Positions 797 to 48,633 are shown, numbered from the stretch's first letter. The stretch is DNA of 64,000 bases from Naegleria gruberi (GCA_000004985.1 GG738891.1), one strand, 5' to 3'. Notes: generated by a model not told the origin, from the sequence alone. Translations and numbers: made by a program.

Positions 797-1803
797 CTCT
801 GTTGGGATTGTTGTATTAGAAGTGTATCAATTTTGTTTGTTTTTGAAAATTGCTATTGAGCCAAACGAATTTCATCGAAACCAAGCGAAACAATATGGTG
901 GGAAATTTTTACTTTTCTTGTCACACACCTTCCCTTTGTGAATTGTCAAACTGTGACAGCGCTAAATCCAAATCCATAAGCTAGAACAGAAAAAGGCTGA
1001 TAATACACCATTGTTGACACTAGTAGCATCTTTCGTCCACTTTAAGCTAAATTTCTCCACCAATTTCACTATTGTTTTGGATTTAAGCAACTGTATTGTG
1101 TAACCAACAACTTTTTAGAATCGTATGTCCACGTCTTTGATGCTTGTAATACCTTGAAAATTAGCATGAAACCAATTATGCATTTCGAATAACAAAAAAG
1201 AATAAAACTGACCATATAAAAGGAATTTTGAATGTCCATAACAACAGAATCAAACCATATTGTTAAATAAATCACACTGTCCTCTAATACCGAATTACTC
1301 CGTTTTCTTATGCATCCTTAACTAATACTAAAAAACAATTCTATTTAGTAATGTGCCATTTTGACAAGTTTGCATTTGTCTTGAGATTTCACTCAGATTT
1401 TTTCATCCCACTTAAACATCCAATAAATCATGAAGTGATTCTTGAAAATATTTCCAATTTGTAAAACGTGTCATTTAATCACAAATCTTCAGAATCCTGC
1501 AAAATTTCACTCTTTGCAATATTTTGAAGAAATTTCTTCTTTTTCTTAATATTTAGAGGTAAATTTTTATAAAAGATGGAGTGGTTCAATAGTATTTTCT
1601 AATTCTCAGTTTTACTGTAAATTTCAAAAGGAATGTTTCGTCAGCAGTTTAGTTTATAAAACTAAATGAAAAATGTTAATTGATTTTAAATTTTTGGAAA
1701 GTGGACGAATATGAGGAAAATCCAAAATTAAATTGAATGAGATTGATTTTCAAAGGTAAATAAGGGAGCGGTAAAAATAGATTTCAAACACATCCTTAAA
1801 AAA

Positions 1804-3306
1804 ATGAAACCGAAATGTTGTATTGGAAATGTTTCGAATACTACAACTTGGACGTTTAGTTCAATAATGAAGAGCATTCCGATAGAAGTTATACAACACA
1901 ATATTTTCCCCTATATGGAACATGCTGATTTGAAATATTGTAGATTGGTTTGTAAACTGTGGGACGAATTTTGCCGAAACACATCAACATTTATTCTATT
2001 GAATGTTCAATTAAAATTTGATGAAGAACTGTTTCATTTAAACAGAAAAGGATTCGGTTTCCACGATTGGACAATCAACAAATTGAAAATTGTAAATAAT
2101 AATATTGACTATGAATATATTTATCAGATTTTAAGAGAAATTAAACGAAAGAGCGATTTGGAACATTTAATTTTGGATAAAAGAATTGATTTCAATCAGC
2201 CAATGAGTCAACTGGTATTAAATTTCCCAAATTTGAAACATTTTTCTATGAACAGCACAAATCTCACCAATCATGCTGGTTTGATTCGAATAGTTTCCAA
2301 TCTAGAAAGTTTAAAACTAAGAGTAATGAATTTGGAAAAGGACTTTCTTCTAAACTTGACCAATAATTTTGGATCCAATTTGGTAAAACTCAAAATTGGA
2401 GCAAGTTTTATTGGAAATGAACATTTATCATGTTTGACAAGCTGTAAACAAGCAAGAAATTTGAAATGTTTAGAAATTGTTTCAAGGAGACATGAAAAAT
2501 TTAACATTGAGGCTAATTTTAGTAATTTTAAGGAAGTGGAAGAGCTGAGTTTGGAATTTGGTGATGCCAATGGCGAAGCTTGTTTGAATGAAATTGTAAA
2601 GATTGAGAATTTGAGAGTTTTATCCTTATCGAGGATGAATCTGGGTGATATTTCTAAACATTTTGAAAAACTGAAGAGATTAGAAAGTCTTTCACTTCAT
2701 AATTGTAATTTTAAAGGATTGAATCAAGTTTACAAATTGCAGAGATTGAAATGTTTGAGTATTAAGGGAGGCACACTGGATGAGCAGGATGTTGTGGGAA
2801 TTTCACAATTGGAGTTGACTAAATTGGCTTTGGATCGTTGTGGAATCTCTGCAGATTTGATTTGTAAACATTCAAGAATGAATTCTTTGAGGGAACTTTC
2901 TCTAACAGGAATTCCGCTCACTGAGGAAGCAATTTCAATAATAGGCAGAGAATTTACCCAATTGAGAACACTCTCCATTAGTTCAATATCAATGGAAAAG
3001 GAAAAACTTCAAAGATTGTTAAGAAATGATTTGTTTAGCTCTCTAAGAAATCTCTCCCTCATATCTTGCAATCTCAATGATGATCATTTGGAAACAATCT
3101 TGGACACAACAAGTATTCTTTCCAGATTATCCAATCTCAATATTGATTTGAATGATTTTTCAGAGAATTCCCTCAAATCTTTGCAAAATCAAAATGCTGC
3201 CTCAATGACAACCATTTCTACCCGATCTAGAAAGTCCAGTTTCAGCAATTCTGATCGACCTACCTCTCCCAAAAGAAGAGAAAAACAAGGATGTCTATTC
3301 CAATAA
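1804..3306 (+). CDS. F-box / leucine-rich-repeat protein (500 aa)
   Basis: The ATG follows an A-run. The N-terminus has an F-box-like motif (IPIEVIQHNIFPYMEHADLKYCRLVCKLWDEF). It is followed by many ~24-28-aa LxxLxLxxC/N repeats of RNI/AMN1-like LRR type. Confidence 0.7.
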   Translation: MKPKCCIGNVSNTTTWTFSSIMKSIPIEVIQHNIFPYMEHADLKYCRLVCKLWDEFCRNTSTFILLNVQLKFDEELFHLNRKGFGFHDWTINKLKIVNNNIDYEYIYQILREIKRKSDLEHLILDKRIDFNQPMSQLVLNFPNLKHFSMNSTNLTNHAGLIRIVSNLESLKLRVMNLEKDFLLNLTNNFGSNLVKLKIGASFIGNEHLSCLTSCKQARNLKCLEIVSRRHEKFNIEANFSNFKEVEELSLEFGDANGEACLNEIVKIENLRVLSLSRMNLGDISKHFEKLKRLESLSLHNCNFKGLNQVYKLQRLKCLSIKGGTLDEQDVVGISQLELTKLALDRCGISADLICKHSRMNSLRELSLTGIPLTEEAISIIGREFTQLRTLSISSISMEKEKLQRLLRNDLFSSLRNLSLISCNLNDDHLETILDTTSILSRLSNLNIDLNDFSENSLKSLQNQNAASMTTISTRSRKSSFSNSDRPTSPKRREKQGCLFQ

Positions 3307-3370
3307 ATCAACCAACTCGAAATCCAATTTTAATTCTCATCCAACTCAATTAAAGTACATTTATTTACAA

Positions 3371-5029
3371 TTATTCCTCTTCCTCATCCACTACACATGC
3401 ATCATCGCTTTCATATCCACTTGTTGATTTTCTTGGCATACGATTACCAATAGTGCTCTGGAAACGAGGAGCATTTGGATTTGGGAGTGGTCTCCTAGAA
3501 TCACGAACAACAGCTCTCTTTCTAACTGGTATTTTGATTTTCCTCACTGTTTGTCCTTCATTGTCAACTTCTGCTGTTTGTTGTTGATTCACTCCTTCTA
3601 CTGTATTTGCTGTTGGTTGTTGACTCATTTCCTCATCACTATTCGATTTTACATCTTCCGTAGTATCGTATTGTTGTGGAGATTCTTGACGTTGATCAAC
3701 AACTGCTTGTCTTTGTTTTGGTGAAATATCCATAACTTCCATCACTGGAGGTTCTGTTAGATAAGTTTGTTTCGAATTATTCATCTCCAAAGGATTCAAC
3801 AAAACAGGTGGTTGATTAAACGAGGTTTGTGGAGAAGTAGGAGTTGGCAATGCTTTCAAATACCCACTATGTGTCTTTATGCCATTGTGTGGTGTTGTAC
3901 TAATTTGTGGAGGTGGTGCCTGTTTCTTCACTGGTTTATCCCAAGTTGTCGTGCCAGATTGTGCATGATGATAATAGTACTGATTGCTTCCGTAATCGTA
4001 GTAAGCTACCCAACCCTCTTCCAATTGTTCTTCCTGTTGTTGTTGTTGTGTTGTACTAGTAGTTGTTGTTGTAGTTGTTTGTGTGTTGGAAACAGTTGCA
4101 GTTGTTGAGGCAGTTGTTGAAGAAGAAGACGAATTATTGGAAGTGTTTGATGAGGATATTGAGGATGCTGATACTGATGATGATGATGATGTACTGCTGC
4201 TATTATTTGATGATTCATCATCTCCGAATATAGAATGTGCTTCAGCAATCAGGGTTGTCATTAAATTACTAGAATATTTGGAATCCTGGAGAATTTCCAT
4301 GTGACTTTGAGGAAGATCTGATTTTAACAAGTTAGGAGCAAAAACAATGGCCAAATTACTTGGCGACATTTTGTTAATACTTGAATTTGCAGCAACTTTC
4401 TTCAAGAATAAACATAAATTCTTTAAAATTGTAAAGTTTGTGGGTGGAAGAAACTTGATTACTTTTTGAATCATGACCAATCTTTGTTCTTCATCAGGAA
4501 TTCTCTGAATATTTGTGAATTTCATGAATAATTTTCATTTGAATTATATTTTCGAAAGTCAAATGATTCGAATAAGATCTAAAAACAAGTCTAAATAACA
4601 TACCTCAGCTGCCAAAAACATTCCATACTGTTCATATGTCAATAAAGGATCCATCAATTCTCTCAAATACAATTTCAGTAAACTACTCGCCAAGTGAATT
4701 TCATATTTCTCATACGGAACATCAAATTTAATATTTTGCTCTAATTGTTGAATGACTTCATCTTCATCTGATTTTTTAGGTGAAATTCTAAAGATACCTT
4801 CAATCTTTAGTCCATTTTCGTCTAGATAGGACATGGCTTTTAATACGAAAGGAGGTAAATCATTTGGATCGAGTGGAAGTTTCTTTGCAAAAACTTTGGA
4901 ATTTGCAAACTTTTCATTGGTTGGGAATTTTTGTGAACCTGGTGAGTTAGCAGCAACTGGTGATGATGGTGAGTTGGAATTGGTTGGTGGAGATGTCGAT
5001 TTCTTGTTATTCTTTTTAAAGATTTTCAT
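3371..5029 (-). CDS. RhoGAP domain protein with WW domain (2 exons)
   Basis: Exons are 4604..5029 and 3371..4504. The intron 4505..4603 is 99 nt (GTATGT...CAG, phase 0). Joining restores one RhoGAP domain (GIFRISPKK...LLKLYLRELMDPLLTYEQY / RIPDEEQRLVMIQKVIKFLP...NKMSPSNLAIVFAPNLL). A WW motif follows (EGWVAYYDYGSNQYYYHHAQSGTTTWDKP). The ORF-track start at 5092 is GTG, and the first ATG is at 5029. Confidence 0.75.
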
Positions 5030-5672
5030 CCCTTCTTCTTTGTTTTTATACGAAAGTAAACTAATGCTATTAGAAATATGATGAACACACACTATTGTAT
5101 GGTCAATATGAAGATGTTGAATGGAAGATGATGACGAAGGCTTTGTTGCTAATCCGAAAGTCCCAAATGATACTGTTGTGTTTTTGTGCTATTTTTTTTT
5201 ATGCTTGTCTGAACATTCATTGGACATTTGACGTGTGAGCGGGTCAGCCAACAGAAACTTGATTCCTAAAAACCCGTAAGTCTGAGGATTCGTGAGACTC
5301 GAGATTAATATTGGCAAAACGAATCCACATATTTCATTGTAATCAAATGCCAAATGCCAAACTGTCGAGACAATAAAGAATATAATCAAGCAAAAACAAG
5401 AGAAGATGTAAAAAGAGACAAGATATAAATTTCTTCATTGTGAAAAACATCAAATATTGCAAACGAACATGAAAACAGCAAGTAACACTATTTTCTAAAT
5501 TTATTCTTATTGAGGCAAGCTTTGATAGCATGAATTTTATTTCCTTTTGGGGATTGTTGTAAAATTAAAAGGAACAGGAAGTTTGGTAGAATGTCATGAA
5601 ATGCTTGCCGAATCTATTCGAATCAATTTTATTATTAATAATTCGAAATTAGGATCTTTTTTGTCGTGTCTG

Positions 5673-6350
5673 TTAAAACAACTTTCGCACAGATTTAATA
5701 ACCCAAAACGAAACTACACTTCCCACCAATACATTAATCAATGAGTTTACAATTATTGTAAAGGCATTCATCAAGACAATTTCAATTTTTTCAATGAAAA
5801 TTGGAATTATAATTTGAGAGATTGAATCTCCTAAAACTTCACTAATTGTTTTTCCCAATAATTTGCTCGCAATTTTCAGCTCAAAATCTTGTAACAATTT
5901 TAAAGAGCTAACGTTTACAAATTGTAATGGAAGTGAAGAGTTTGATAAATGTGGAATTGTAAAATAATCAAATTTCATAGAGATGGAAACATGTTCGAGT
6001 GATATTTTACCTTGATCCCAAATAAAATTCTTTCCTTTTTGGTTAATTCTTTGAATTTTGTAATCAAATTCCAAATTTGTTAATTTAAAGTGATTTAAAT
6101 TTTTCAAATCCAAAATAATAGTTGTATTTTCCACAGAGAAGAGTAAATTAGAATTGGAAAGTACTTGATTCAATAGTGAATATTTCAATTCGATGGATTT
6201 TTCAAATTTAATTGAAGAGAGAAAGTAAGATGAGAAACTTTCCGAAATGGCAGTTGAAGTTTTTGAGAGGAAGGTTGTATGTTCCAAGCCTGATGAATTT
6301 TCCAATAGAAAAAAACAAGCAAGCAACATTAGCAAAAACACGTGTTTCAT
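5673..6350 (-). CDS. hypothetical secreted or membrane-anchored protein (225 aa)
   Basis: The ORF has an N-terminal signal-like hydrophobic segment (VFLLMLLACFFLL) and a C-terminal hydrophobic segment (IIVNSLINVLVGSVVSFWVI). I recognise no family with confidence. Confidence 0.4.
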   Translation of the reverse strand: MKHVFLLMLLACFFLLENSSGLEHTTFLSKTSTAISESFSSYFLSSIKFEKSIELKYSLLNQVLSNSNLLFSVENTTIILDLKNLNHFKLTNLEFDYKIQRINQKGKNFIWDQGKISLEHVSISMKFDYFTIPHLSNSSLPLQFVNVSSLKLLQDFELKIASKLLGKTISEVLGDSISQIIIPIFIEKIEIVLMNAFTIIVNSLINVLVGSVVSFWVIKSVRKLF

Positions 6351-6484
6351 TTTTTTTTGAAATTAGAAACTTAAGTTTATGTAGTTTACAATGAAGAATG
6401 GTCCCTGCCATGAAAAATTGGATAGTAATTGCAATTGTTAGTTTTTGGAGTCATCTTAATTTTATTTTAACAAAGAAACAAAAA

Positions 6485-6602
6485 GACTACAGCACCACAG
6501 GTTCCCAAGTTGTCTCCAACCTCAGTACTGATGTGGCTCGACGATGCTTAACTTCTCAAATCGGACGGGATGAGGTGCATTCATCGTGATATGGCCGTAG
6601 CC
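6485..6602 (-). rRNA. 5S ribosomal RNA
   Basis: The minus strand reads GGCTACGGCCATATCACGATGAATGCACCTCATCCCGTCCGATTTGAGAAGTTAAGCATCGTCGAGCCACATCAGTACTGAGGTTGGAGACAACTTGGGAACCTGTGGTGCTGTAGTC, followed by TTTTT. It is colinear with the eukaryotic 5S consensus (GCCTACGGCCATACC..CCGATCTCGTCTGATCTCGGAAGCTAAGC..AGTACTTGGATGGGAGACC..GGGTGCTGTAGGC). The 5' and 3' ends pair as helix I. Confidence 0.9.
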
Positions 6603-6793
6603 ATTCAATTACTAGATTTCTGAGTTATAAATCAAAGTTGCAATCAATTTATTTTCGCAACTAAGCTTACCATGCAATTACAAAATAAAGTTGATAGACA
6701 ATTGGTGAAACAGACCTGCCTTTGAAGGATGTAAATCTTTATTGATCATTCCATCAGGTCTCAAAATAATCCTACCCTGGAAAATTAAAAATA

Positions 6794-6866
6794 TGCCGAC
6801 ACCAGGGATCGAACCAGGGACCTTAAGATCTTCAGTCTTACGCTCTCCCAACTGAGCTATGTCGGC
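6794..6866 (-). tRNA. tRNA-Phe (GAA)
   Basis: The minus strand reads GCCGACATAGCTCAGTTGGGAGAGCGTAAGACTGAAGATCTTAAGGTCCCTGGTTCGATCCCTGGTGTCGGCA. The 7-bp acceptor stem is perfect, the anticodon loop is CTGAAGA and the T-loop is TTCGATC. There is one T:T mismatch in the T-stem. A TTTTT terminator follows. Confidence 0.9.
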
Positions 6867-6978
6867 TTCTTAATTCATATGTGTAAGTATTAAGGTTCCT
6901 TATATAAGAAAATGGAACTTTAGCAAAGTTGCCTCTAAATTGGTTAAATAAAAAAACCTTTAAACTGTTAGAAAATGT

Positions 6979-9342
6979 TTAATAAAATGGTTCCCCTCCA
7001 TTATAAACGTCCAAATATTCGATTCCCTCGAACTGTCTAAATCTGAAGTAATGAGCACCTGCAACTGATTGAATTAGGGCAGGATCCATCTCACTTGAAA
7101 CTATTGAGGCATCAGGAATCATTTCTGATGTTACCCTTTCAACAATCTCTTTCAGTTTTGGAATGTTAAAAGTACCTCCGGAAAGGATAACATGCTTAAT
7201 CTTTGGTACTCTTCCATATGGCGAAGGAATCATTCCCTCTGTGATGGATTCTCTTAGTAACTTCTCAAAGTTTGCAAATTCGTTTTCACATAGAGTGTAA
7301 AATTCATCCCTTGTAACTGTAACAGAAGATCCATTTGAAAGTTCTACGATTGTGGAATTATTGATAGAAAGGGAACCCTTTACCTTTTCACATTGCTTAA
7401 GATCGATTGAGGAGCTGTGCTTTTCTTCCAAATGCTTCAATAAAATGAAACTGAAATCCTTTCCATTACAGCATTCCAAAAACTTTTCAAATATAAGATG
7501 ACTGTAGTAGTATTGAGAAACCTCACTGATATTGACTACTGGCTTACTACTTGACCAATTAACCACTAGACAATCACTGCCCATAATTGATTGGATGAAT
7601 GCATAAGGTATAATTTCTCTTCCATCCTCACAACATTGCAAGACTGACAATCCACAAGCTTTAGCAGATTCTACAACTAGATATTTATCCTCTGTTGGGA
7701 CTAGTAATTGTACAATTTTGGTTGAGAAGTATTTCACATTACCATCAAGATTGATCCGATCACTTGCATAGCTTGTCTCCATGTGTTGTTTGAATTCTCT
7801 GAATAATTCCTTCATTCTTTCACTGTTCGAATAAATATTTTCATCATTCGTTTGAATAACTTTTGCTGTTACTCCAACTGAATTACTAATTGAAATTGAA
7901 GCTTTCCATCGAGTTCTTCCACAATCAATTGACCAAGGAGCATGATTAAATTTACATCTGGAAATGATATTGTCTCTAATAGCTTGATCTCTTAAAGTAG
8001 TAATTGCCCATGAAATAACAGGTTGAATTCCATCCAATTCAGGATTGTAATCAACTCCCATAAATCCAGAAATGTAATGAAACTCTTTCCACTTTTGATG
8101 ATTCAACACCTCGACACTTGTTGCCGTAATTGGATTAGGGAAGCATCCAATTTCAAAAGCCTCTCTCCATCTGAAAACTTTTGCAAGTTTCTCAACTTCA
8201 GACTCTCCAGTTTCTTCAAACAAGTAGCCCTGAGAGAAATCATCAGTATATGGTTCATTTTCAGCAAATTTAGAATCCATCTCGATAAATTTCTGTAAAT
8301 GGTATGAAACTCTGTTCTCTTTATCATATGGGAAGAAGTAATTGATCCATCCAGAAATGAAATCAAAGCCACTGCTAGAATCAAAGAGAGCAATACCATT
8401 CCAAAATGTTTTCAACTCTTCAGTGAGAGTTTCTTCTTGGGCTGTTTTGATAATCCTATCAAGAATGAGTGTCAAAACCTTTCTCCACCAAGCCATATCA
8501 TATTCGTCAAGGAGTTTGAGCTTCTCTCTCATTCCCAACCAGTCATCCATAGTTCCCAAAATTGTAACACTTGGAAGACCACATAAGAAATCATTCTTAT
8601 ACGAATAAAAATCCTTAAAAGCTTCCATCAACAACATTTTCGAGGCAACTTTCTCAACTTGGGTAGAAGTTGAAAAGTTGTGATCTATAAAGTCCATCAA
8701 TTTGATTTTTCTCTCATCTCCCTTATGGGATGAAACATCATTTACAATTGCCTGATGAATTTCATTCACAACTCCCTCCCAATTAATCTCAGCACTCACT
8801 GGATCAATATATTGAGGCATAGCAACAACAATATCCATCTTGTTTTGCTTTTCTTCAGCATTGCCAATCAATTCAGGTCTCAAAGCCAAATGCTTTACCA
8901 ATCCCTGTGTAATCATCATCCAAATGTGATCAGGACTCACAATCAATGGATAATGTTCACTGTAAGCAGTACAATAACAAGCAACAACAGGATGAGGTCT
9001 CACCAATAGATTCTTCAATGCATAGACATTATCGGGTGAGTGTATGACACTGTAACGGGATCGAATTAAATCCTGATCAACTTTATCTCCCTTCTCAATG
9101 GTATTAGTAAATAATTGATTTAATAAAACTCTTTCAGAAGGCTGACTGTAGAGTTTGCCAATTTCATAGGGTTTGGCTTCTTCTTGTTCATCCTCATCAA
9201 TCGGATGCTTCTTCTTTGGAGTCCATGATGAAGCATAGAAGGGAGTAAAATCCCTCTTACAAAGAACCTTCATGTTGCGCAATTTTTTTGGAATTGTTCC
9301 ATCTTGTTCCTTAACAACAATATCTTTGATATCTGCTTCCAA
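6979..9342 (-). CDS. DUF4419-like domain protein with C-terminal actin/Hsp70-like ATPase-like region (787-aa ORF)
   Basis: This is a single long ORF. The N-terminal half carries the motif I associate with DUF4419 (HPVVACYCTAYSEHYPLIVSPDHIWMMITQGLVKHLALRPE). The C-terminal third has Hsp70/actin-fold-like motifs (WSIDCGRTRWKASI; VILSGGTFNIPKLKEIVERV; QSVAGAHY). The ORF-track start at 9342 is TTG, and the first in-frame ATG is at 9273. Confidence 0.6.
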   Translation of the reverse strand: MEADIKDIVVKEQDGTIPKKLRNMKVLCKRDFTPFYASSWTPKKKHPIDEDEQEEAKPYEIGKLYSQPSERVLLNQLFTNTIEKGDKVDQDLIRSRYSVIHSPDNVYALKNLLVRPHPVVACYCTAYSEHYPLIVSPDHIWMMITQGLVKHLALRPELIGNAEEKQNKMDIVVAMPQYIDPVSAEINWEGVVNEIHQAIVNDVSSHKGDERKIKLMDFIDHNFSTSTQVEKVASKMLLMEAFKDFYSYKNDFLCGLPSVTILGTMDDWLGMREKLKLLDEYDMAWWRKVLTLILDRIIKTAQEETLTEELKTFWNGIALFDSSSGFDFISGWINYFFPYDKENRVSYHLQKFIEMDSKFAENEPYTDDFSQGYLFEETGESEVEKLAKVFRWREAFEIGCFPNPITATSVEVLNHQKWKEFHYISGFMGVDYNPELDGIQPVISWAITTLRDQAIRDNIISRCKFNHAPWSIDCGRTRWKASISISNSVGVTAKVIQTNDENIYSNSERMKELFREFKQHMETSYASDRINLDGNVKYFSTKIVQLLVPTEDKYLVVESAKACGLSVLQCCEDGREIIPYAFIQSIMGSDCLVVNWSSSKPVVNISEVSQYYYSHLIFEKFLECCNGKDFSFILLKHLEEKHSSSIDLKQCEKVKGSLSINNSTIVELSNGSSVTVTRDEFYTLCENEFANFEKLLRESITEGMIPSPYGRVPKIKHVILSGGTFNIPKLKEIVERVTSEMIPDASIVSSEMDPALIQSVAGAHYFRFRQFEGIEYLDVYNGGEPFY

Positions 9343-9442
9343 AATATTTGTGCTTTCCCTTGTAAGGTGTTTTGTACAGTCCGCAGAGCAAAGATTGAGA
9401 AATTACAAAGGATTTGAAAATCATAAAATATATCTTACACGT

Positions 9443-11299
9443 TTATAACTTAGGGGTAGTGCTATTCTTTCTTACAGTAATTTCCTCATTTAGGTTTTCT
9501 TGTATGCATGCTAAAATCTTAGATTTGTTTTCAATGGCATAAAATTGTGACATTAAGTGAATTTGTTGAATTGGAGAATAGATTCTTATATTAATTCTTG
9601 CTTGAACTAGATCAAACCAATTAATGGAAGGGGGTGGAGCTAGAATTCCTGTAGTATATTCAGCAAGTGATTTCTCATCAATACTCCAATTATGTCTATA
9701 AATTTCTTTCCATATAACATCAGACTTGGCAGATTCGTACCAATGTCTACAAACAGAGAAACATGTCAATAAATCAGGTATATCCAAAAAGAGGAATATA
9801 TACACTAGGGAATCTGTAGTAATACGTCTATTGAGTTCACCATTATTCTTCTTTGATCCTTGCTTAATTGTAAGTTTAAATCCTTCAATGCATTGCATTA
9901 AATAGTCAGATGAAATATATATACAATTATCAGAATTATTTGAGAAGGTTTTCTGAATATTTTGTAAACTTAATACTTGAGTGTCTGATCCTACTGGAAG
10001 TGTGACAATCTTTCTATGTTTGGGTTTGCTTTGAATGACAACAGGTTTTTCTTCTTCTGGCACATACTCATCATCGTCAGCTTTTCTCTTTCTTTTACCT
10101 TTTCCAGTTCCAACAATTGTTAGTTCAGATTCCTCATCCATCATCTGATCTGCATCATCTGTACTTGATTGAGGTGCACTTGGAAGTGGTTTAGTTCTTG
10201 GTCTACCTCTTCCTCTCTTCTTTTCCACTTGTGGTGGTGATGGAGGTGGTAGTTCAACACTTGATGAGGCAGAAGCTACAATTGTTTGTACAGTTGCTTC
10301 CAAAGGAGGTGCTGGTTTTTTCTTGTTGGAAGAACCTTTTGGACGACCTCTACTCCTCTTTCCTTGTTTTTCAGGTGTTGAAACATTAGTAGATGTTGTT
10401 GTGGCAGCTGCTTCCAATGATGTTTGTGTGTTTGTCAATTGTGAAGAGGTTGCAGATTCCTCAGTGCCAGTAGTACTACTACTAGAAGATGATGGTTTGC
10501 TTTCATCAGTTGCTTTAAGAGATTCGGAAACAAGATGGCCTGCATCATTGTACTTGATAAAAGGTCTCACTCCCTGTTGGGCTCCTGTACCAGGATCTAA
10601 AAAGCCTACATTAGTGGAATATTTAATACCACAAGCATTACATAATGTTCCTGTTCCAAGAGGTCCCTTTCTCCAAGTAGGAGTATCCATACATCCACAA
10701 TTAGAGCAAACAGCCTTCGCTTGAATTCTCTTCACTTTCAATGAAGAAACAATAGAATCTCTTTCACCTTCTGCCAATTGTACAATTTCACCCTTCTTGC
10801 CAGGCTTCTTTTTCTTTTGGTGTTCTTCTGTGGTTGCTGTTGGTACTGTTGTGGATGCATCCTTGTCCCAAATTAATTGTAGTGTGGTTGGTGCCTCTGT
10901 ATTGATTGTTGTTGGTGGTAAATTGTTACAAGGAAGGGAGGAAGAGGCTGGATCTTGTCTGCCAACTTGTCCTCCTGAGGCTGAAAATACATTGGGAATA
11001 ACAGATGATCCATTCACAACACTACTAATAGAACCCTTCTCGGCACTAGAGGTTAATTGATCCAGAATACTACCGAGTGTTATTTCATTGGTGTTATCTG
11101 AGGTCATCCCGACAATCCCTGGCGTGTTAGTATCAACAGATGAAGCAGTTAGGGGTGTACTAGACTCTTGAACCTCTAGTTTGACTGTAGAAGATGACAA
11201 CACGTCTACAGCTGCTGGACTAACAGTGTTAGCCTCCTGAGTTGTTGAAGGAGGATGATTCAGCTGTGTTTCTTCTTGGTTTTCGGAGGCGAGGCTCAT
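9443..11299 (-). CDS. GATA zinc-finger / AT-hook / F-box-like protein
   Basis: The protein has a GATA finger (CSNCGCMDTPTWRKGPLGTGTLCNACGIKY). It has two AT-hooks (KRSRGRPKGS, KKRGRGRPRTKP). A C-terminal F-box-like motif follows (FLDIPDLLTCFSVCRHWYESAKSDVIWKEIY). The likely start is ATG 11299 (MSLASENQ) after AAAAAA. The ORF is open up to 11398. Confidence 0.7.
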   Translation of the reverse strand: MSLASENQEETQLNHPPSTTQEANTVSPAAVDVLSSSTVKLEVQESSTPLTASSVDTNTPGIVGMTSDNTNEITLGSILDQLTSSAEKGSISSVVNGSSVIPNVFSASGGQVGRQDPASSSLPCNNLPPTTINTEAPTTLQLIWDKDASTTVPTATTEEHQKKKKPGKKGEIVQLAEGERDSIVSSLKVKRIQAKAVCSNCGCMDTPTWRKGPLGTGTLCNACGIKYSTNVGFLDPGTGAQQGVRPFIKYNDAGHLVSESLKATDESKPSSSSSSTTGTEESATSSQLTNTQTSLEAAATTTSTNVSTPEKQGKRSRGRPKGSSNKKKPAPPLEATVQTIVASASSSVELPPPSPPQVEKKRGRGRPRTKPLPSAPQSSTDDADQMMDEESELTIVGTGKGKRKRKADDDEYVPEEEKPVVIQSKPKHRKIVTLPVGSDTQVLSLQNIQKTFSNNSDNCIYISSDYLMQCIEGFKLTIKQGSKKNNGELNRRITTDSLVYIFLFLDIPDLLTCFSVCRHWYESAKSDVIWKEIYRHNWSIDEKSLAEYTTGILAPPPSINWFDLVQARINIRIYSPIQQIHLMSQFYAIENKSKILACIQENLNEEITVRKNSTTPKL

Positions 11300-15657: not shown

Positions 15658-15728
15658 TCGGGTGTGGTATAGTGGTAGCATTCCAGACTGTCACTCTGGC
15701 GACCCGGGTTCAATTCCCGGCACTCGAG
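15658..15728 (+). tRNA. tRNA-Asp (GUC)
   Basis: The sequence is TCGGGTGTGGTATAGTGGTAGCATTCCAGACTGTCACTCTGGCGACCCGGGTTCAATTCCCGGCACTCGAG. The acceptor stem pairs TCGGGTG with CACTCGA, the anticodon stem is CCAGA/TCTGG with loop CTGTCAC, and the T-arm is CCGGG-TTCAATT-CCCGG. A T-run lies shortly downstream. Confidence 0.9.
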
Positions 15729-29593: not shown

Positions 29594-29663
29594 TCTTAAG
29601 NGTTGCAATACCTNNNNNNNNNNNNNNNNNNNNNNNNNNNNNNNNNNNNNNNNNNNNNNNNNN
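29581..29663. other. assembly gap (N run with a few called bases)
   Basis: An N at 29581 and a run of Ns at 29594..29663 are written in the sequence. Confidence 1.
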
Positions 29664-39662: not shown

Positions 39663-41558
39663 TCACTTGTATGAAATTTCTTTCATATCAAAGCTAGTAT
39701 TGATAAAGTCAATGATGTTCTTCTGAGTGTTTGTAATCAAGTGAGATTTACCTTGCATTGTGGTAATTCTAGATCTAAAGTCTCGTTCATCGAGTGATAA
39801 GTTCAGAATGGCATCTAAATTTAACAATAAATCAGAAGTATAGTCTTCCAAACGAGATAGATGGTCATTAAATAAATAACCATAGGTCTCTAACATTAAA
39901 AATTCCTTCTCTGACTTTTTGGTTGTGTTAAATTTGATTTTGAGTGTGTCAAATCCGAAATGAATGTAAGCAAATGCATAACATGAACGTAAGAGTCTTC
40001 TACATCTGTAGATATTTCTGAAAGAGTCGAGAAGGAATTTGAGATCCTTGGTTGGTCTAATATGGAAAAACTTTTCCTTATAATTTGCAATTTCGAGTCG
40101 ATAGTGACCTGTTCGTTTATGTTCCTCCAACCATTGATTGTGTCTTCTGTATAATGAGACGAATCTTCCATAAAGTTCTTCTGCTGCAGAGAATAATTTA
40201 ATATCTTCAGATGTTTTCACTGTCTTTGGAGCACAAACTGTTTCAGCATGAACGTAGGATGTATACTCTGAACCACACTATCGATGAAGAATCAAAACTA
40301 AACTCTCTTTGATGATGATACTTACAATATAACAAAATTCATGTCCACAAACACAATTAATGTGATTACATCCAACATCCTTAAATATAATTCTTTTACA
40401 CTTGTTACATTGTTGACTTGTTCTGTGAATAAACTCTTTCGATGCAAAATCATCCTGAGCAATAGTCAAGAATCTCTTATACACATCACATGAGCATGGG
40501 AAGTGAGGATCCTTATCACATTGGAAGCAACACTCTTCACCACACTTGCATTGAGCAATGTACAAACTTTCATCACATAGTTTCTTGATTGCATAGGGAC
40601 CATCACAGCCTGGATTAGGACACCACTTTAGTCTGTAACTTGAACCCACATATGAATCAATCTTTCTCTGGAAAAACTTTTCAAATAATTCCTTATCTTC
40701 CTTTGGATCCAATTGTGACAACATAAATGTCTCAGTAAGTGTAGTCTTACATGAATAGTCCATACACTTTACAGTATTATCATTCATTGCTGTTTTGACA
40801 TGATTGACAATATATTCCTTCCAACAAGTTCTACAGAAAACATGTCCACACATATCATATGCGTACAATGGAACATCATCTGAATAACAAGCATCACATG
40901 TGCCAATTGTTGAAGATGAACATGATTTTTTGAAATCTGGATTGAGTCCACACTTGGTTAATAAAGCATCCAATCCCAAATCACCATAATCTCTAATTAA
41001 TTTCTCTGTATTCCACTGATATTCCTTCAACATACATTCCACAAATACTTTACTCTTCAATTGAAGAGTTTCAGCTGCTGTCTTTACTTCTGCCTCTTGA
41101 TCTTGCAATAATTCCTTTGTATCAAGTACCTTGTACAATTCTCCTTTTGTTTTAAATTCCCTCGTCTTGACAACTTCTACAAAGGCAGATTCGTCCACTT
41201 GTTCACCAATATCATCATCAAAGTAATGTTCTTCTCCTACTATATCATCTTCATTGTATTCAATTTCCTCCTCCTCTTCATAATTTTCCTCTTCATGATC
41301 ATGATGATCACAACCACATTCCGGCGTCTCGTGCTCTTCTTCCTTCTCTTCATCATCAATTGAAGCTTCCAATAAATCACCATTCTCCTCACACATCTGA
41401 ATGACAGTCTCTATGGCAAGAGCCTCATCTAAATTACAATCCAAAACCACTTGATGGAGTGTTTGGAGGCTAATACTGGGAAAGAGTTCGTTCAATGAGA
41501 GAACGATTGCTTTTATTTTTTCCTTTCGTTTGTCCTTCTCGGATTGTTGTTGACTCAT
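39663..41558 (-). CDS. RBR (RING-IBR-RING) E3 ubiquitin ligase, Ariadne-like (2 exons)
   Basis: Exon 1 is 40326..41558. The intron is 40278..40325 (48 nt, GTAAGT..TAG, phase 0). Exon 2 is 39663..40277. RING1 is CDACYSDDVPLYAYDMCGHVFCRTCWKEY. The IBR is WCPNPGCDGPYAI...CKCGEECCFQCDKDPHFPCSC. RING2 is CNKCKRIIFKDVGCNHINCVCGHEFCYI-CGSEY and spans the splice site. A helical Ariadne-type C-terminus follows. Confidence 0.8.
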
Positions 41559-41750
41559 TTTTTTATTTTGTTGATTTCTACGCTGTTTGTTTTCGAAATT
41601 GAAGTTGAGATGCTGAAAGTTCTTTGATAATGAAAAACAAACAAGAGTACTAAGTTACAAAAAAGGAAAACTTAAAAGGAAAGGGGACCAGTGGGAATCG
41701 AACCCACGGCCTCTCGCACCCAAAGCGAGAATCATACCACTAATTTTTAT

Positions 41751-41825
41751 GAAAGGGATTTGTGAAGAAGGGATCTGTGAGGAAGGGATCCGTTACAAAA
41801 GGGATTCATTGAGAATGTGTTAGTT
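41751..41825 (+). repeat. GGGAT-core ~16-bp tandem array 1 (4 intact + 1 degenerate unit)
   Basis: GGGAT cores lie at 41755, 41770, 41785 and 41801, followed by a GTGTTAGTT variant. The array is preceded by ATTTTTA. Confidence 0.85.
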
Positions 41826-42241
41826 ACTTTCGAATATTTAATTGAAATTTGATCTATATTAAAAAAAATTGCGGAAGGGGTAGTCTCTTTTTTGAAATTA
41901 ATAAAAATATACAATTTTGAAAATTAAAAATCAAGTTTTTTTATTGTTATTTGATGTTTGATTATTTTCTGTAAATTGATTAATTTCACATTTTCTATTA
42001 TGACAATAATGTGAATAATTAACACTTTTTGATGGTTTGTAATTTTGATTCATTTTCTTTTTTAAAATTTAATCTCATTCTAATTTTTAAAAATGTAATT
42101 GTTCATATTATTAAAATGTTATTTTTCTATTTACAATAAATTATTCTATCTCTCTTGAATATTTTTAATAATTGTAAATTTTCTAAAAAAAGGAAATAGA
42201 TAATATTCAATTAAATCCCTTCTAATTTTAAATTTTTTTTT

Positions 42242-42335
42242 GAGAAAGGGATTTGTGAGGAAGGGATTCATTGCAAAAGGGATCCGTTCTGAAAGGGATT
42301 CATTGAAAAATGGATTCATTATGGATGTGATAGTT
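42242..42335 (+). repeat. GGGAT-core ~16-bp tandem array 2 (4 intact + 2 degenerate units)
   Basis: GGGAT cores lie at 42248, 42263, 42279 and 42295. TGGAT variants lie at 42311 and 42322. The array is preceded by T9. Confidence 0.85.
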
Positions 42336-42403
42336 TCAAATTTTAATTAATAATATAAAATTAACACAATATTTATTCTATTTATATACATTTCTTTTTT
42401 TGG

Positions 42404-42510
42404 TAATGGATTTCATTGCAAAAGGGATCCGTTAAAGAAGGGATTCATTACAGAAGGGATCTGTTACAAAAGGGATTCATTGTAAACGTGTTTCATTGAG
42501 AAAGTGTTTC
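42404..42510 (+). repeat. GGGAT-core ~16-bp tandem array 3 (4 intact + 3 degenerate units), abutting the right TSD
   Basis: A TGGAT variant lies at 42407. GGGAT cores lie at 42424, 42440, 42456 and 42472, followed by CGTGTTTCATT and AAGTGTTTC variants. The array is preceded by T7. Confidence 0.85.
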
Positions 42511-42787
42511 TACCACTAGACCATGGTCCCTTACGTTTAAAATCCATTATATTTAAAATTGGTGCCTATAATACGGACTACATCTATTTTCCTTGTGTGA
42601 TTCATTACAAAAGGATGGCTATTCAAAACTTTAGAAGGTTACAATTTTAAATGTACTTTGCATGTTACTCACTATTTTTAGTGTCCCAATAGATTTCACT
42701 CACATTCTATTGAAGGTGTTGTGAAAAAAAAAGCACCAACAACCAATACCTTTACTAATCGCTCACTGCCAGCAGTTCATTACCAAC

Positions 42788-47216: not shown

Positions 47217-48633
47217 TTATTTTACATAAACTCTCTTCAATCTAGGTAATAAAGCAGTTACAACTTCATAGTTAATAGTATTGGACCAGTGTGACACCAT
47301 TTCACATGTCACTTCCTTACCATCTTGTTCACCAATTAAGACTACTTCATCATTGATTTTAACTCTATCTACAACAGTTGGAGAAATTTTAACTACAAAT
47401 TGATCCATGCAAATTCTACCAACTATTGGACACTCTTCACCTCTAATTAATACGTGGGCCTTACCAGTATTAATTCTCTTGTATCCATCTCCATAACCAA
47501 CTGGGACTAATGCAAGGGTTTCGTCATCCTCTGCAACTGTATAGGTATTTCCGTATGAAACTGGTGATCCCTTTGGGAATTTTTGAACTCTTCCAAGGTG
47601 CGAAACAACAGTGAGAGCAGGTTTCAATTTGAATGGAAGTCTTGGATCATCTCTATCATTACTTGGTGAAAGTCCATAAATTGAAATACCTGGTCTAATC
47701 ATATCCATGTGCATTTCTGGGAAGAATAGAGTTCCAGCACTATTGCAACAATGGTAAGTGAGTGGCTTTTCAAAAACTCTTGAAACTTGATGATTTTCAA
47801 TCATTTTCTTCACCTCCATGAATTTATAAAATTGCTCTCTCGTATAGTCTGGGCTCATCTCATCAGCACTTGAAAAGTGTGTAAATACTCCTGTAATTTT
47901 GATTCTATTGTACAATTTCATTGGATTAATAGTGAACCATCTCAAGAAATTTTCCAATTTTTCAGGATGAGCTCCAAATCTTCCCATTCCAGTATCAACC
48001 TTCAAATGTACATTAATGGTTTTATCTTGTTTTTCACATTCTCTAAACAGAGTTTCAACAATTAATCTACTGCCTGAAATAGTTGGAGTTAAATTGTAAG
48101 TGACACATTCCTTCACCTCCTCTGGAATGGCATAACCCAACACTAGAATTTCAATATTTGCATTTTCCTTACTCAAATTACTACGAATTTTAACACCTTC
48201 CTTCACTCTATTTACTGCAAATTGTTTAATTGACAATTCATTGTAAAGTTCCCTGACAACTGGTGTATCTCCGTGTCCTATAATATCATGAAATCATGAA
48301 ATTGGATTCGTCGTATGAGTGAAATTGTCATCACATCCGAAATTAATTTTTTCATCATTAACAAATATACATCATGAGAATATTTTCAACATCATGATTA
48401 AATATATTCCGATCCATAATTTACCTACCATAGGCATTGGCTTTAACCACTGGCATTACGTGAATATCCTGATTGTAGTTTTTAGCAAAATTTACAGTAT
48501 TTTCCACATTTTCAGTGATATTCCTCAAATTCACAATCGCACACGAAGTTGATTGTAGTTTTCGTGGCACATTGGACAAGGTTGTTCCCAAATGTTTTAA
48601 CAAGTTGGATGTTGTTGTTCCTTGTTTCATCAT
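47217..48633 (-). CDS. alr: alanine racemase, bacterial type (PLP-dependent; 2 exons)
   Basis: Exon 1 is 48429..48633. The intron is 48278..48428 (151 nt, GTAGGT..TAG, phase 1). Exon 2 is 47217..48277. The junction restores the PLP-lysine motif VMPVVKANAYG-HGDTPV. Further motifs are HLKVDTGMGRFG, VFTHFSSADE, IRPGISIYGLSP and the C-terminal beta domain (PVGYGDGY..; RICMDQFVV). The ORF-track start at 48648 is TTG, and the first ATG is 48633 after A8. Confidence 0.85.

What the first reader, a model, noticed from the sequence alone, without database searches (positions are those of the whole stretch)
41683..42530. tRNA-Pro(UGG) gene split in its D-loop by a 768-bp non-coding insertion with a perfect 8-bp target-site duplication
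On the minus strand, 42530..42511 reads GGGACCATGGTCTAGTGGTA. On the same strand, 41742..41683 reads TAGTGGTATGATTCTCGCTTTGGGTGCGAGAGGCCGTGGGTTCGATTCCCACTGGTCCCC. Deleting 41743..42510 plus one copy of TACCACTA (41735..41742 equals 42511..42518) restores a textbook 72-nt tRNA-Pro. That tRNA has a 7-bp acceptor stem, anticodon loop TTTGGGT and T-loop TTCGATT. This is therefore an insertion into a once-functional Pol III gene between its A and B boxes. The insert has no long ORF and no terminal inverted repeat that I can find. On the tRNA-sense strand it ends in a short A-run (CATAAAAAT) next to the duplication. An 8-bp duplication is typical of hAT-type DNA transposons, while A-tail plus duplication is typical of retroposons. 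The element fits neither class cleanly, so it may be an undescribed non-autonomous family, possibly with tRNA-gene targeting.
Basis: partly seen in the sequence, partly recalled or inferred. Interest (0 to 1): 0.75.

Follow-up and report, generated by a model that had tools for sequence, protein, structure and literature searches.

The report
Mobile-element insertion splitting a tRNA-Pro gene
A proline tRNA gene of the amoeba Naegleria gruberi has been cut in two and inactivated by a 768-base non-coding mobile element of unclassified type, which is a real but fairly ordinary kind of event.

Summary
On the minus strand, 42530..42511 plus 41734..41683 rejoin into a 72-nt tRNA-Pro(UGG). ARAGORN calls this gene only after the insert is removed in silico. 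The 768-bp insert (41743..42510) is flanked by an exact 8-bp duplication, TAGTGGTA, which covers tRNA nt 13-21 (A box and D loop). The window comes from Naegleria gruberi.

The insert is 24% GC and has no ORF longer than 57 aa, no Rfam match and no terminal inverted repeat. Fourteen T-runs on the tRNA strand rule out a Pol III intron.

The best reading is a recent staggered-cut insertion of a non-autonomous transposable element. The closest described kind is Dada. Dada elements are DNA transposons without inverted repeats that insert inside tRNA A boxes with 6-7 bp duplications, sometimes apparently 8 bp. Membership is not shown, because the site and duplication length differ and no Dada transposase was found for Naegleria.

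Interest is moderate to low.

The parts
42511..42530 (-). 5' fragment of tRNA-Pro(UGG), nt 1-21: acceptor 5' strand, D stem 5' strand and D loop. It carries a complete A box and ends in duplication copy 1.
42511..42518 (-). Target-site duplication copy 1, TAGTGGTA (tRNA nt 13-21)
41743..42510 (-). 768-bp insert: 23.7% GC, non-coding, no terminal inverted repeat, 14 runs of T>=4 on the tRNA-sense strand
42394..42510 (-). Left (5') module: header GAAACACTTTCTC, then six 16-bp units AAYGRATCCCTTnnnn, then the A-run AAAAAAAG
42233..42320 (-). Internal module: five units of the same 16-bp motif ending in CACAAATCCCTTTCTC, then A9
41743..41821 (-). Right (3') module: header AACACATTCTC, then four units ending in CACAAATCCCTTTCAT, then AAAAAT, abutting the duplication. 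Same orientation as the other two modules.
41735..41742 (-). Target-site duplication copy 2, TAGTGGTA
41683..41742 (-). 3' fragment of tRNA-Pro(UGG), nt 13-73: D stem 3' strand, anticodon arm (TGG), variable loop, T arm with the B box GGTTCGATTCC, and acceptor 3' strand
41658..41682 (-). T-runs directly after the tRNA 3' end (TTTCCTTTTAAGTTTTCCTTTTTT), read as a Pol III terminator
   Evidence: the terminator role is inferred from general Pol III knowledge
42599..42614 (-). One isolated copy of the 16-bp unit (15/16 match, same orientation). It lies outside the insert, 69-84 bp upstream of the tRNA start. Whether it belongs to the element is uncertain.

Best explanation
Shown: a functional-looking tRNA-Pro(UGG) gene of Naegleria gruberi was split between nt 21 and 22. 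A 768-bp piece of non-coding, AT-rich DNA sits there, and 8 bp of target (TAGTGGTA, the D loop and distal A box) are duplicated on both sides. This is the signature of joining to an 8-bp staggered break followed by gap repair. The gene is now dead. Its A and B boxes are 776 bp further apart, and the insert carries 14 oligo-T Pol III stop signals.

Inferred: the insert is a non-autonomous transposable element moved in trans by a DDE-type transposase. The 16-bp unit AAYGRATCCCTTnnnn, iterated 4-6 times at each terminus and once more internally, is read as the protein-binding array that defines the ends. Because it has no inverted repeats, has asymmetric ends and sits in a tRNA A box, it works most like the Dada superfamily, which holds small-RNA-gene-specific DNA transposons without inverted repeats.

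The insertion looks recent: the duplication is perfect and neither tRNA half shows decay.

The confidence given (0.42) is for the inferred DDE-transposon mechanism. That this is an insertion of mobile DNA which killed the gene I hold at about 0.9.
For: - Exact restoration of the tRNA and an exact 8-bp duplication.
- Neither ARAGORN nor Rfam at gathering threshold calls the gene in the interrupted state.
- There are 14 T>=4 runs on the sense strand, the first 40 nt into the insert.
- All 8 exact hits of GGGATYCRTT in 64 kb, and all 10 hits of AAGGGATYCRTT with up to one mismatch (1.9 expected), lie inside the insert on one strand.
- The three modules align at about 80% over roughly 70 nt. Left and right share a header; internal and right share a tail.
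- No inverted repeat at any boundary phasing, but a strong direct repeat between the ends: score 42 against 10.
- Dada precedent from the literature: no inverted repeats, insertion inside tRNA genes at the A box, a 6-7 bp duplication that can look like 8 bp, and presence in the protist Perkinsus marinus.
- I re-observed this anatomy in Perkinsus olseni, where a Dada copy lies in a tRNA-Arg/Ser array with TAGCTC/TAGTTC duplicated at nt 8-13. The Perkinsus targets TAGCTC and TAGTCT and ours, TAGTGG(TA), all start with TAG.
Against: - Only one copy is available, so mobility, family ends and targeting are all inferred.
- The duplication is 8 bp at nt 13-21, not 6-7 bp at nt 8-13.
- No Dada-like or other transposase lies in the window.
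- No Naegleria protein appeared among the Dada-profile hits I could inspect. However, only 150 of 2957 hits were visible, and I looked up the source organism for only 10 of them.
- Arrays of direct repeats at both ends are not a described Dada feature.
- Protein-binding repeats at the two ends of cut-and-paste elements are normally in inverted orientation, not direct.
- The A-rich 3' end of each module also fits a retroposon.
- An identical TAGTGGTA in tRNA-Asp is unoccupied.
Confidence: 0.42

Rival explanations
1. Non-LTR-type retroposon (SINE-like or a processed fragment) inserted by target-primed reverse transcription on the tRNA-sense strand. A nick at the target is followed by a second nick 8 bp away, which gives the duplication.
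For: - No inverted repeats and asymmetric ends. An 8-bp duplication is within the usual 7-20 bp range (established knowledge).
- The sense strand ends in ATAAAAAT next to the duplication.
- Each of the three modules ends in an A-run (A7, A9, A5), as if short A-tailed units had been joined.
Against: - The terminal A-run is only five A's in a 24% GC sequence and is followed by T.
- There is no tRNA-, 5S- or 7SL-like head, no internal Pol III promoter and no ribozyme.
- No reverse transcriptase lies in the window.
- The repeat arrays at the 5' end have no obvious role in this mechanism.
Confidence: 0.2
2. A hAT-like (or P, Merlin or Mutator-like) non-autonomous cut-and-paste element whose terminal inverted repeats are too short or too degenerate to see. 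It landed in the tRNA gene only because Pol III genes and divergent promoters are open chromatin.
For: - The 8-bp duplication is the hAT hallmark (established knowledge).
- Subterminal short repeats are typical transposase-binding sites.
- The tRNA lies in a short divergent intergenic region between genes starting at 41558 (-) and 42788 (+).
Against: - No complementarity at the ends, not even for the terminal 2-3 bases, at any phasing.
- The subterminal arrays are direct, not inverted.
- TAGTGGTA does not fit the hAT target consensus nTnnnnAn (established knowledge).
Confidence: 0.15
3. Miniature LTR-type element (TRIM-like), with the left and right modules acting as terminal direct repeats.
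For: The left and right modules are direct repeats of about 70-80 nt that share a header and flank an AT-rich interior.
Against: - An 8-bp rather than a 4-6 bp duplication. There are no TG...CA ends, no primer-binding site and no polypurine tract (family features are from established knowledge).
- The left and right modules are only about 80% identical, whereas the duplication and tRNA halves show no decay. LTRs are identical at insertion.
- A third array sits inside the element.
Confidence: 0.04
4. Site-specific integration by a tyrosine recombinase (Crypton-like or integrase-like). On this reading the 8 bp is not a duplication but the crossover core shared by a circular element and the tRNA gene, as when prokaryotic elements integrate into tRNA genes.
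For: - No inverted repeats.
- 6-8 bp is the usual overlap length for tyrosine recombinases (established knowledge).
- Direct arrays could be arm-type binding sites.
Against: - There are no inverted core-type sites around the 8 bp in either the element or the tRNA (by inspection).
- No recombinase gene lies in the window.
- To my knowledge, no eukaryotic precedent for targeting tRNA genes in this way exists.
Confidence: 0.04
5. An extraordinary D-loop intron, so that the locus still produces tRNA-Pro.
For: Both halves are intact, and the pre-tRNA minimum-free-energy fold can pair the acceptor ends.
Against: - There are 14 oligo-T Pol III terminators in the insert.
- The position is not 37/38.
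- The 8-bp repeat is a duplication signature, not a splice motif.
- The insert is roughly ten times longer than known tRNA introns.
Confidence: 0.01
6. Assembly chimera.
For: Read support could not be checked. The assembly does contain gaps (N-run at 29614-29663).
Against: A misjoin would not create an exact 8-bp duplication that restores a perfect tRNA. The two halves are collinear, in the same orientation, and lie between annotated neighbouring genes on one 339-kb scaffold.
Confidence: 0.02

Closest known systems
Dada superfamily of DNA transposons (Kojima & Jurka 2013, PMC3706591; Kojima 2022, PMC8869645)
   Same: - Inserted inside a multicopy Pol III gene rather than next to it.
- The target lies in the tRNA A-box/D-arm region.
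- No terminal inverted repeats.
- A short duplication that in some families reads as 8 bp.
- Occurs in protists (Perkinsus). Those targets start with TAG (TAGCTC, TAGTCT), as does ours (TAGTGG).
- Non-autonomous deletion derivatives are known.
   Different: - Duplication of 8 bp at nt 13-21, against 6-7 bp at nt 8-13 or the anticodon arm.
- No transposase and no autonomous partner identified.
- Naegleria is not among the reported hosts.
- Direct 16-bp repeat arrays at the ends are not described for Dada. The Perkinsus olseni copy examined here (L108) has different ends.
hAT-type non-autonomous elements (MITEs)
   Same: An 8-bp duplication, small non-coding size, and short subterminal repeats.
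   Different: No inverted repeat, subterminal repeats in direct orientation, and a duplication that does not fit nTnnnnAn.
Retroelements associated with tRNA genes (Dictyostelium TRE5/TRE3 and DGLT-A; yeast Ty1/Ty3)
   Same: Mobile elements associated with Pol III genes in compact protist or fungal genomes, where such genes act as 'safe havens'.
   Different: Those elements insert upstream or downstream of tRNA genes through contacts with TFIIIB/TFIIIC and leave the gene intact. This one sits inside the coding region and destroys it. No reverse-transcriptase signature is present.
Target-specific non-LTR retrotransposons of multicopy RNA genes (R1/R2, Utopia, Keno, Mutsu)
   Same: Insertion inside a conserved multicopy RNA gene with a short duplication and no inverted repeat.
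   Different: Those carry, or depend on, a LINE with a defined 3' tail. No such partner or tail is evident here.

Membership tests
Dada | Inserted inside a tRNA, snRNA or 5S gene | tested here: met
   The insert splits tRNA-Pro(UGG) at nt 21/22.
Dada | No terminal inverted repeats | tested here: met
   Inverted score 10 against 7.6 +/- 1.3 for shuffles. No register reaches 9/15 matches.
Dada | Target-site duplication of 6-7 bp | tested here: inconclusive
   The observed repeat is exactly 8 bp. The Dada papers report apparent 8-bp cases that they reinterpret as 6 bp plus 2 terminal bases. One copy cannot settle this.
Dada | Family-specific site, usually tRNA nt 8-13 or the anticodon arm | tested here: not met
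   The site is nt 13-21. It is adjacent and still within the A box and D loop (compared).
Dada | Encodes, or shares termini with an element that encodes, the Dada DDE transposase (DUF6729 zinc finger, DDE, DxxH) | tested here: inconclusive
   None in the window. No Naegleria protein among the inspected profile hits, but only 150 of 2957 hits were visible and only 10 were looked up by source. N. gruberi DNA was unreachable.
Dada | Several copies in the same position of the same gene family | not testable with these tools
   There is no access to the rest of the genome. The window holds a single copy.
hAT | 8-bp duplication | tested here: met
hAT | Short terminal inverted repeats | tested here: not met
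hAT | Target consensus nTnnnnAn | tested here: not met
   TAGTGGTA and its complement TACCACTA both have A at position 2 and T at position 7 (sequence; consensus from established knowledge).
Non-LTR retroposon / SINE | 3' poly(A) or simple-repeat tail abutting the duplication | tested here: inconclusive
   The end reads ATAAAAAT, with only five A's, in AT-rich DNA.
Non-LTR retroposon / SINE | Head derived from a Pol III RNA, or an internal promoter | tested here: not met
   No Rfam match inside the insert at E<=10 other than noise. The only B-box matches in the window belong to the three tRNA genes.
LTR / TRIM | Near-identical terminal direct repeats with TG..CA ends, a primer-binding site, a polypurine tract and a 4-6 bp duplication | tested here: not met
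   The end modules are about 80% identical, start with GAAACAC, and flank an 8-bp duplication.
tRNA intron | Transcribed through by Pol III and excised at position 37/38 or at a bulge-helix-bulge motif | tested here: not met
   There are 14 T>=4 runs and the position is 21/22. No RNA data were available.

The most novel reading that the evidence does not exclude
The insert is one copy of a family of DNA transposons in Heterolobosea that lack inverted repeats and target tRNA genes. This would be the first such family in Discoba. It recognises the D loop and A box (TAGTGG/TA) and makes 8-bp duplications. Its ends are defined by same-orientation arrays of a 16-bp protein-binding unit. It would be either a deep new Dada lineage with a shifted target or a separate superfamily.
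Probability: 0.2. Interest if true: 0.6.

Novelty: new member of a known kind. Interest (0 to 1): 0.35.

Why it matters
If further copies sit at the same tRNA position, this would extend sequence-specific targeting of small-RNA genes by DNA transposons to a very distant eukaryotic lineage. So far this is known from Dada in animals, fungi, algae and Perkinsus. It would also provide a compact 768-bp substrate, with an obvious candidate binding motif, for studying how a transposase defines ends without inverted repeats. If it is a single random hit, it is only one more tRNA pseudogene created by a transposable element. It would then serve as a clean, datable example for annotating the largely unclassified repeats of N. 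gruberi.

Tried and rejected
- **Reaching other N. gruberi DNA.** Exact-protein contig look-ups for two window proteins found no record.
- **Motif scans of public collections.** A two-unit motif scan gave nothing in viral contigs. In metagenome contigs it gave 107 loci, none of them Naegleria-like. These were bacterial chance hits plus an unrelated family with inverted repeats, 42-49% GC, that merely shares AATGAATCCC. In prokaryotic genomes the scan gave four chance hits. BLAST of the insert against plasmids found nothing.
- **Other copies in the window.** None.
- **Ribozymes or structured RNAs in the insert.** None.
- **Dada transposase in Naegleria.**
  - A profile built from the published alignment found only Perkinsus, fish and related hits.
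  - An exhaustive profile search gave 2957 hits, of which 150 were visible.
  - I looked up ten of them: nine of the most AT-biased plus the best-scoring new hit. All came from metagenomes, Lottia or a pipefish.
  - One AT-biased metagenome contig (L113) is 41-45% GC and has no tRNA fragment.
- **Spliceosomal reading.** Using GT/AG inside the duplication does not restore the tRNA exactly (by inspection).
- **Tyrosine-recombinase core sites around the 8 bp.** None seen.
- **A shared upstream motif among the window's tRNA and 5S genes.** None.
- **Not attempted.** Searching insert-derived short ORFs against the protein database. The odds of success were judged too low for the cost.

Full report
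**Origin of the window**

Two ORFs translate exactly to annotated Naegleria gruberi proteins, EFC40593.1 and EFC40657.1, on one 339,217-bp scaffold. The window is gene-dense and 33% GC. None of the roughly 35 ORFs of 150 aa or more matches a transposase, integrase or reverse transcriptase.

**The observation**

Joining minus-strand 42530..42511 to 41734..41683 gives a 72-nt tRNA-Pro(UGG) that ARAGORN calls. It has a 7-bp acceptor stem, anticodon loop TTTGGGT and T loop TTCGATT.

In the real, interrupted sequence neither ARAGORN nor Rfam at gathering threshold reports it. The 3' piece alone reaches 28.4 bits against a threshold of 29.

TAGTGGTA occurs at 42511-42518 and at 41735-41742. The bases beyond it differ, so the duplication is exactly 8 bp. 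It corresponds to tRNA nt 13-21, which is the last D-stem base plus the whole D loop and overlaps the A box. T-runs follow the 3' end, as expected for a Pol III gene.

**Anatomy of the insert (41743-42510, 768 bp)**

- It is 23.7% GC. Its longest ORFs are 57 and 55 aa. It has no credible Rfam match.
On the tRNA-sense strand the unit reads AAYGRATCCCTTnnnn.
  - The left array has six units, directly after a 13-nt header GAAACACTTTCTC.
  - The internal array has five units.
  - The right array has four units after a similar header, AACACATTCTC, and runs into the last six bases, AAAAAT.
- All arrays have the same orientation.
- All 8 exact GGGATYCRTT matches in the 64-kb window are inside the insert. 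All 10 matches to AAGGGATYCRTT with up to one mismatch are also inside it, against 1.9 expected.
- Each array is followed by an A-run (A7, A9, A5).
- The two 100-nt ends give a direct local score of 42 but an inverted score of only 10. Shuffles give 7.6 +/- 1.3. No phasing of the boundaries within the duplication gives even 9/15 terminal complementarity. The element therefore has terminal direct repeats of an iterated motif and no terminal inverted repeats.
- One further unit (15/16 match, same orientation) lies outside the insert at 42599-42614, 69-84 bp upstream of the tRNA. I cannot explain it. The other Pol III genes of the window have nothing similar upstream.

**What it is not**

- **Not an intron.** The sense strand of the insert has 14 runs of four or more T, the first 40 nt in. 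Pol III would therefore stop early. The position, 21/22, is also not a known splice position.
- **Not an LTR pair.** The end modules are only about 80% identical, while the 8-bp duplication and both tRNA halves show no decay. The duplication is 8 bp rather than 4-6 bp, and there is no TG..CA end, primer-binding site or polypurine tract.
- **Not a typical hAT.** There is no inverted repeat. TAGTGGTA does not fit the hAT consensus nTnnnnAn (established knowledge).
- **Not convincingly a retroposon.** That reading rests on a five-A run in AT-rich DNA and finds no Pol III-type head.
- **Very unlikely a misassembly.** A misjoin would not produce an exact duplication that restores a cloverleaf. Reads could not be checked.

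**Closest known kind**

The Dada superfamily consists of DDE DNA transposons that insert at family-specific sites inside U6, U1, 5S and tRNA genes. They have no terminal inverted repeats and make 6-7 bp duplications. In some families the duplication appears to be 8 bp (TAGCTCAG, CTGCGAAT).

In both fish and the protist Perkinsus marinus they favour tRNA nt 8-13 in the A box, with targets TAGCTC followed by AG and TAGTCT followed by AA.

I checked this anatomy directly. A Perkinsus olseni homologue found with a profile of the published transposases lies in a tandem tRNA-Arg/tRNA-Ser array. The junctions of a neighbouring, second Dada copy in that array read GCCCGAT-TAGCTC-AG|element...element|TAGTTC-AGCTGG. 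That is a 6-bp duplication of nt 8-13.

The Naegleria insert shares four features with Dada:
- It lies inside a tRNA gene.
- It lies in the A-box region.
- It has no inverted repeats.
- Its duplication is short and starts with TAG.

It differs in three ways:
- The duplication is 8 bp, not 6-7 bp.
- The site is nt 13-21, not nt 8-13.
- Its direct-repeat arrays are not a described Dada feature.

**The test that could not be completed**

The defining feature of Dada is a Dada transposase partner, and that could not be established. None lies in the window. The word-indexed search returned only Perkinsus, fish and related proteins. The exhaustive profile search found 2957 relatives but shows only 150. 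The ten I looked up were not Naegleria.

Motif scans of metagenomic, viral, prokaryotic and plasmid collections returned nothing related. Copy number, consensus ends and tRNA targeting therefore remain untested.

An identical TAGTGGTA in the D loop of the intact tRNA-Asp at 15670-15677 shows that suitable targets are not saturated. A recent methylome study notes that only a small fraction of N. gruberi repeats can be assigned to known transposable-element classes. An unclassified family would therefore not be surprising.

**Verdict**

I am about 90% confident that this is a recent staggered-cut insertion of a mobile, non-coding element that destroyed a tRNA-Pro gene.

For the type of element:
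- A Dada-like non-autonomous DNA transposon without inverted repeats is the best-fitting mechanism. I put the specific Dada-like reading at about 0.3-0.35. With the less specific reading (some DDE transposase recognising the 16-bp arrays), this gives the 0.42 reported for the best explanation.
- A retroposon is at about 0.2.
- A degenerate hAT-like element is at about 0.15.
- The other readings are minor.

The finding is real and tidy. On present evidence it is a single insertion of a transposable element into a multicopy gene, so interest is moderate to low. Interest would rise if genome-wide copies prove tRNA-specific.

Noticed in passing
window 6484-6602 (-) and 6794-6866 (-): A single 5S rRNA gene (105 bits) lies 191 bp downstream of a tRNA-Phe(GAA) gene on the same strand. 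This is a dispersed 5S gene linked to a tRNA gene rather than part of a 5S array.
   Followed up: no
window 15658-15728 (+), motif at 15670-15677: The intact tRNA-Asp(GTC) carries the identical 8-mer TAGTGGTA in its D loop. The sequence duplicated at the tRNA-Pro insertion therefore exists unoccupied 26 kb away.
   Followed up: partly
window 42599-42614: One isolated copy of the insert's 16-bp unit (GATTCATTACAAAAGG on the + strand, 15/16 match, same orientation) lies outside the duplication, 69-84 bp upstream of the tRNA start. About 0.18 such matches are expected in the whole window. It may be a remnant of an older copy or chance.
   Followed up: partly
window 41559-42787: The split tRNA lies in a divergent intergenic region between an IBR-domain gene (start 41558, -) and an ankyrin-repeat gene (start 42788, +). 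The insertion enlarged this shared promoter region from about 453 bp to 1229 bp.
   Followed up: no
window 29601 and 29614-29663: An assembly gap (51 N) lies where ORFs for a GFAT-like protein (SIS/GATase domains, - strand) and an isocitrate/isopropylmalate dehydrogenase-like protein (+ strand) overlap. The local gene models there are unreliable.
   Followed up: no
window 47217-48236 (-): An intronless ORF has full alanine racemase N- and C-terminal domains (E about 1e-40 each). This is a typically bacterial enzyme in a eukaryotic window and a possible lateral gene transfer.
   Followed up: no
L080 717-765 and 3528-3577; L051 444-492 and 1317-1366; about 60 further metagenome loci: A repeated element family in JGI metagenome contigs (42-49% GC) has inverted ends GGTGTAGCAGTCTGCAATGAATCCCC... 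and AATGAATCCC units at 16- and 32-bp spacing. It often lies at contig ends. It shares only the 10-bp core with the Naegleria unit, and it was found because the search pattern selected for that core.
   Followed up: partly
L108 (Perkinsus olseni JABANP010000185.1) 957-4851 and 5162-9627: Two Dada-type elements lie back to back inside a tandem tRNA-Arg(ACG)/tRNA-Ser(GCT) array with a period of about 316 bp. The first has a clean 6-bp duplication (TAGCTC/TAGTTC, tRNA nt 8-13) and an imperfect terminal inverted similarity. The second has a tRNA-Arg left junction, but its right flank starts in array spacer. This resembles the one-ended events described for zebrafish Dada-tL.
   Followed up: partly
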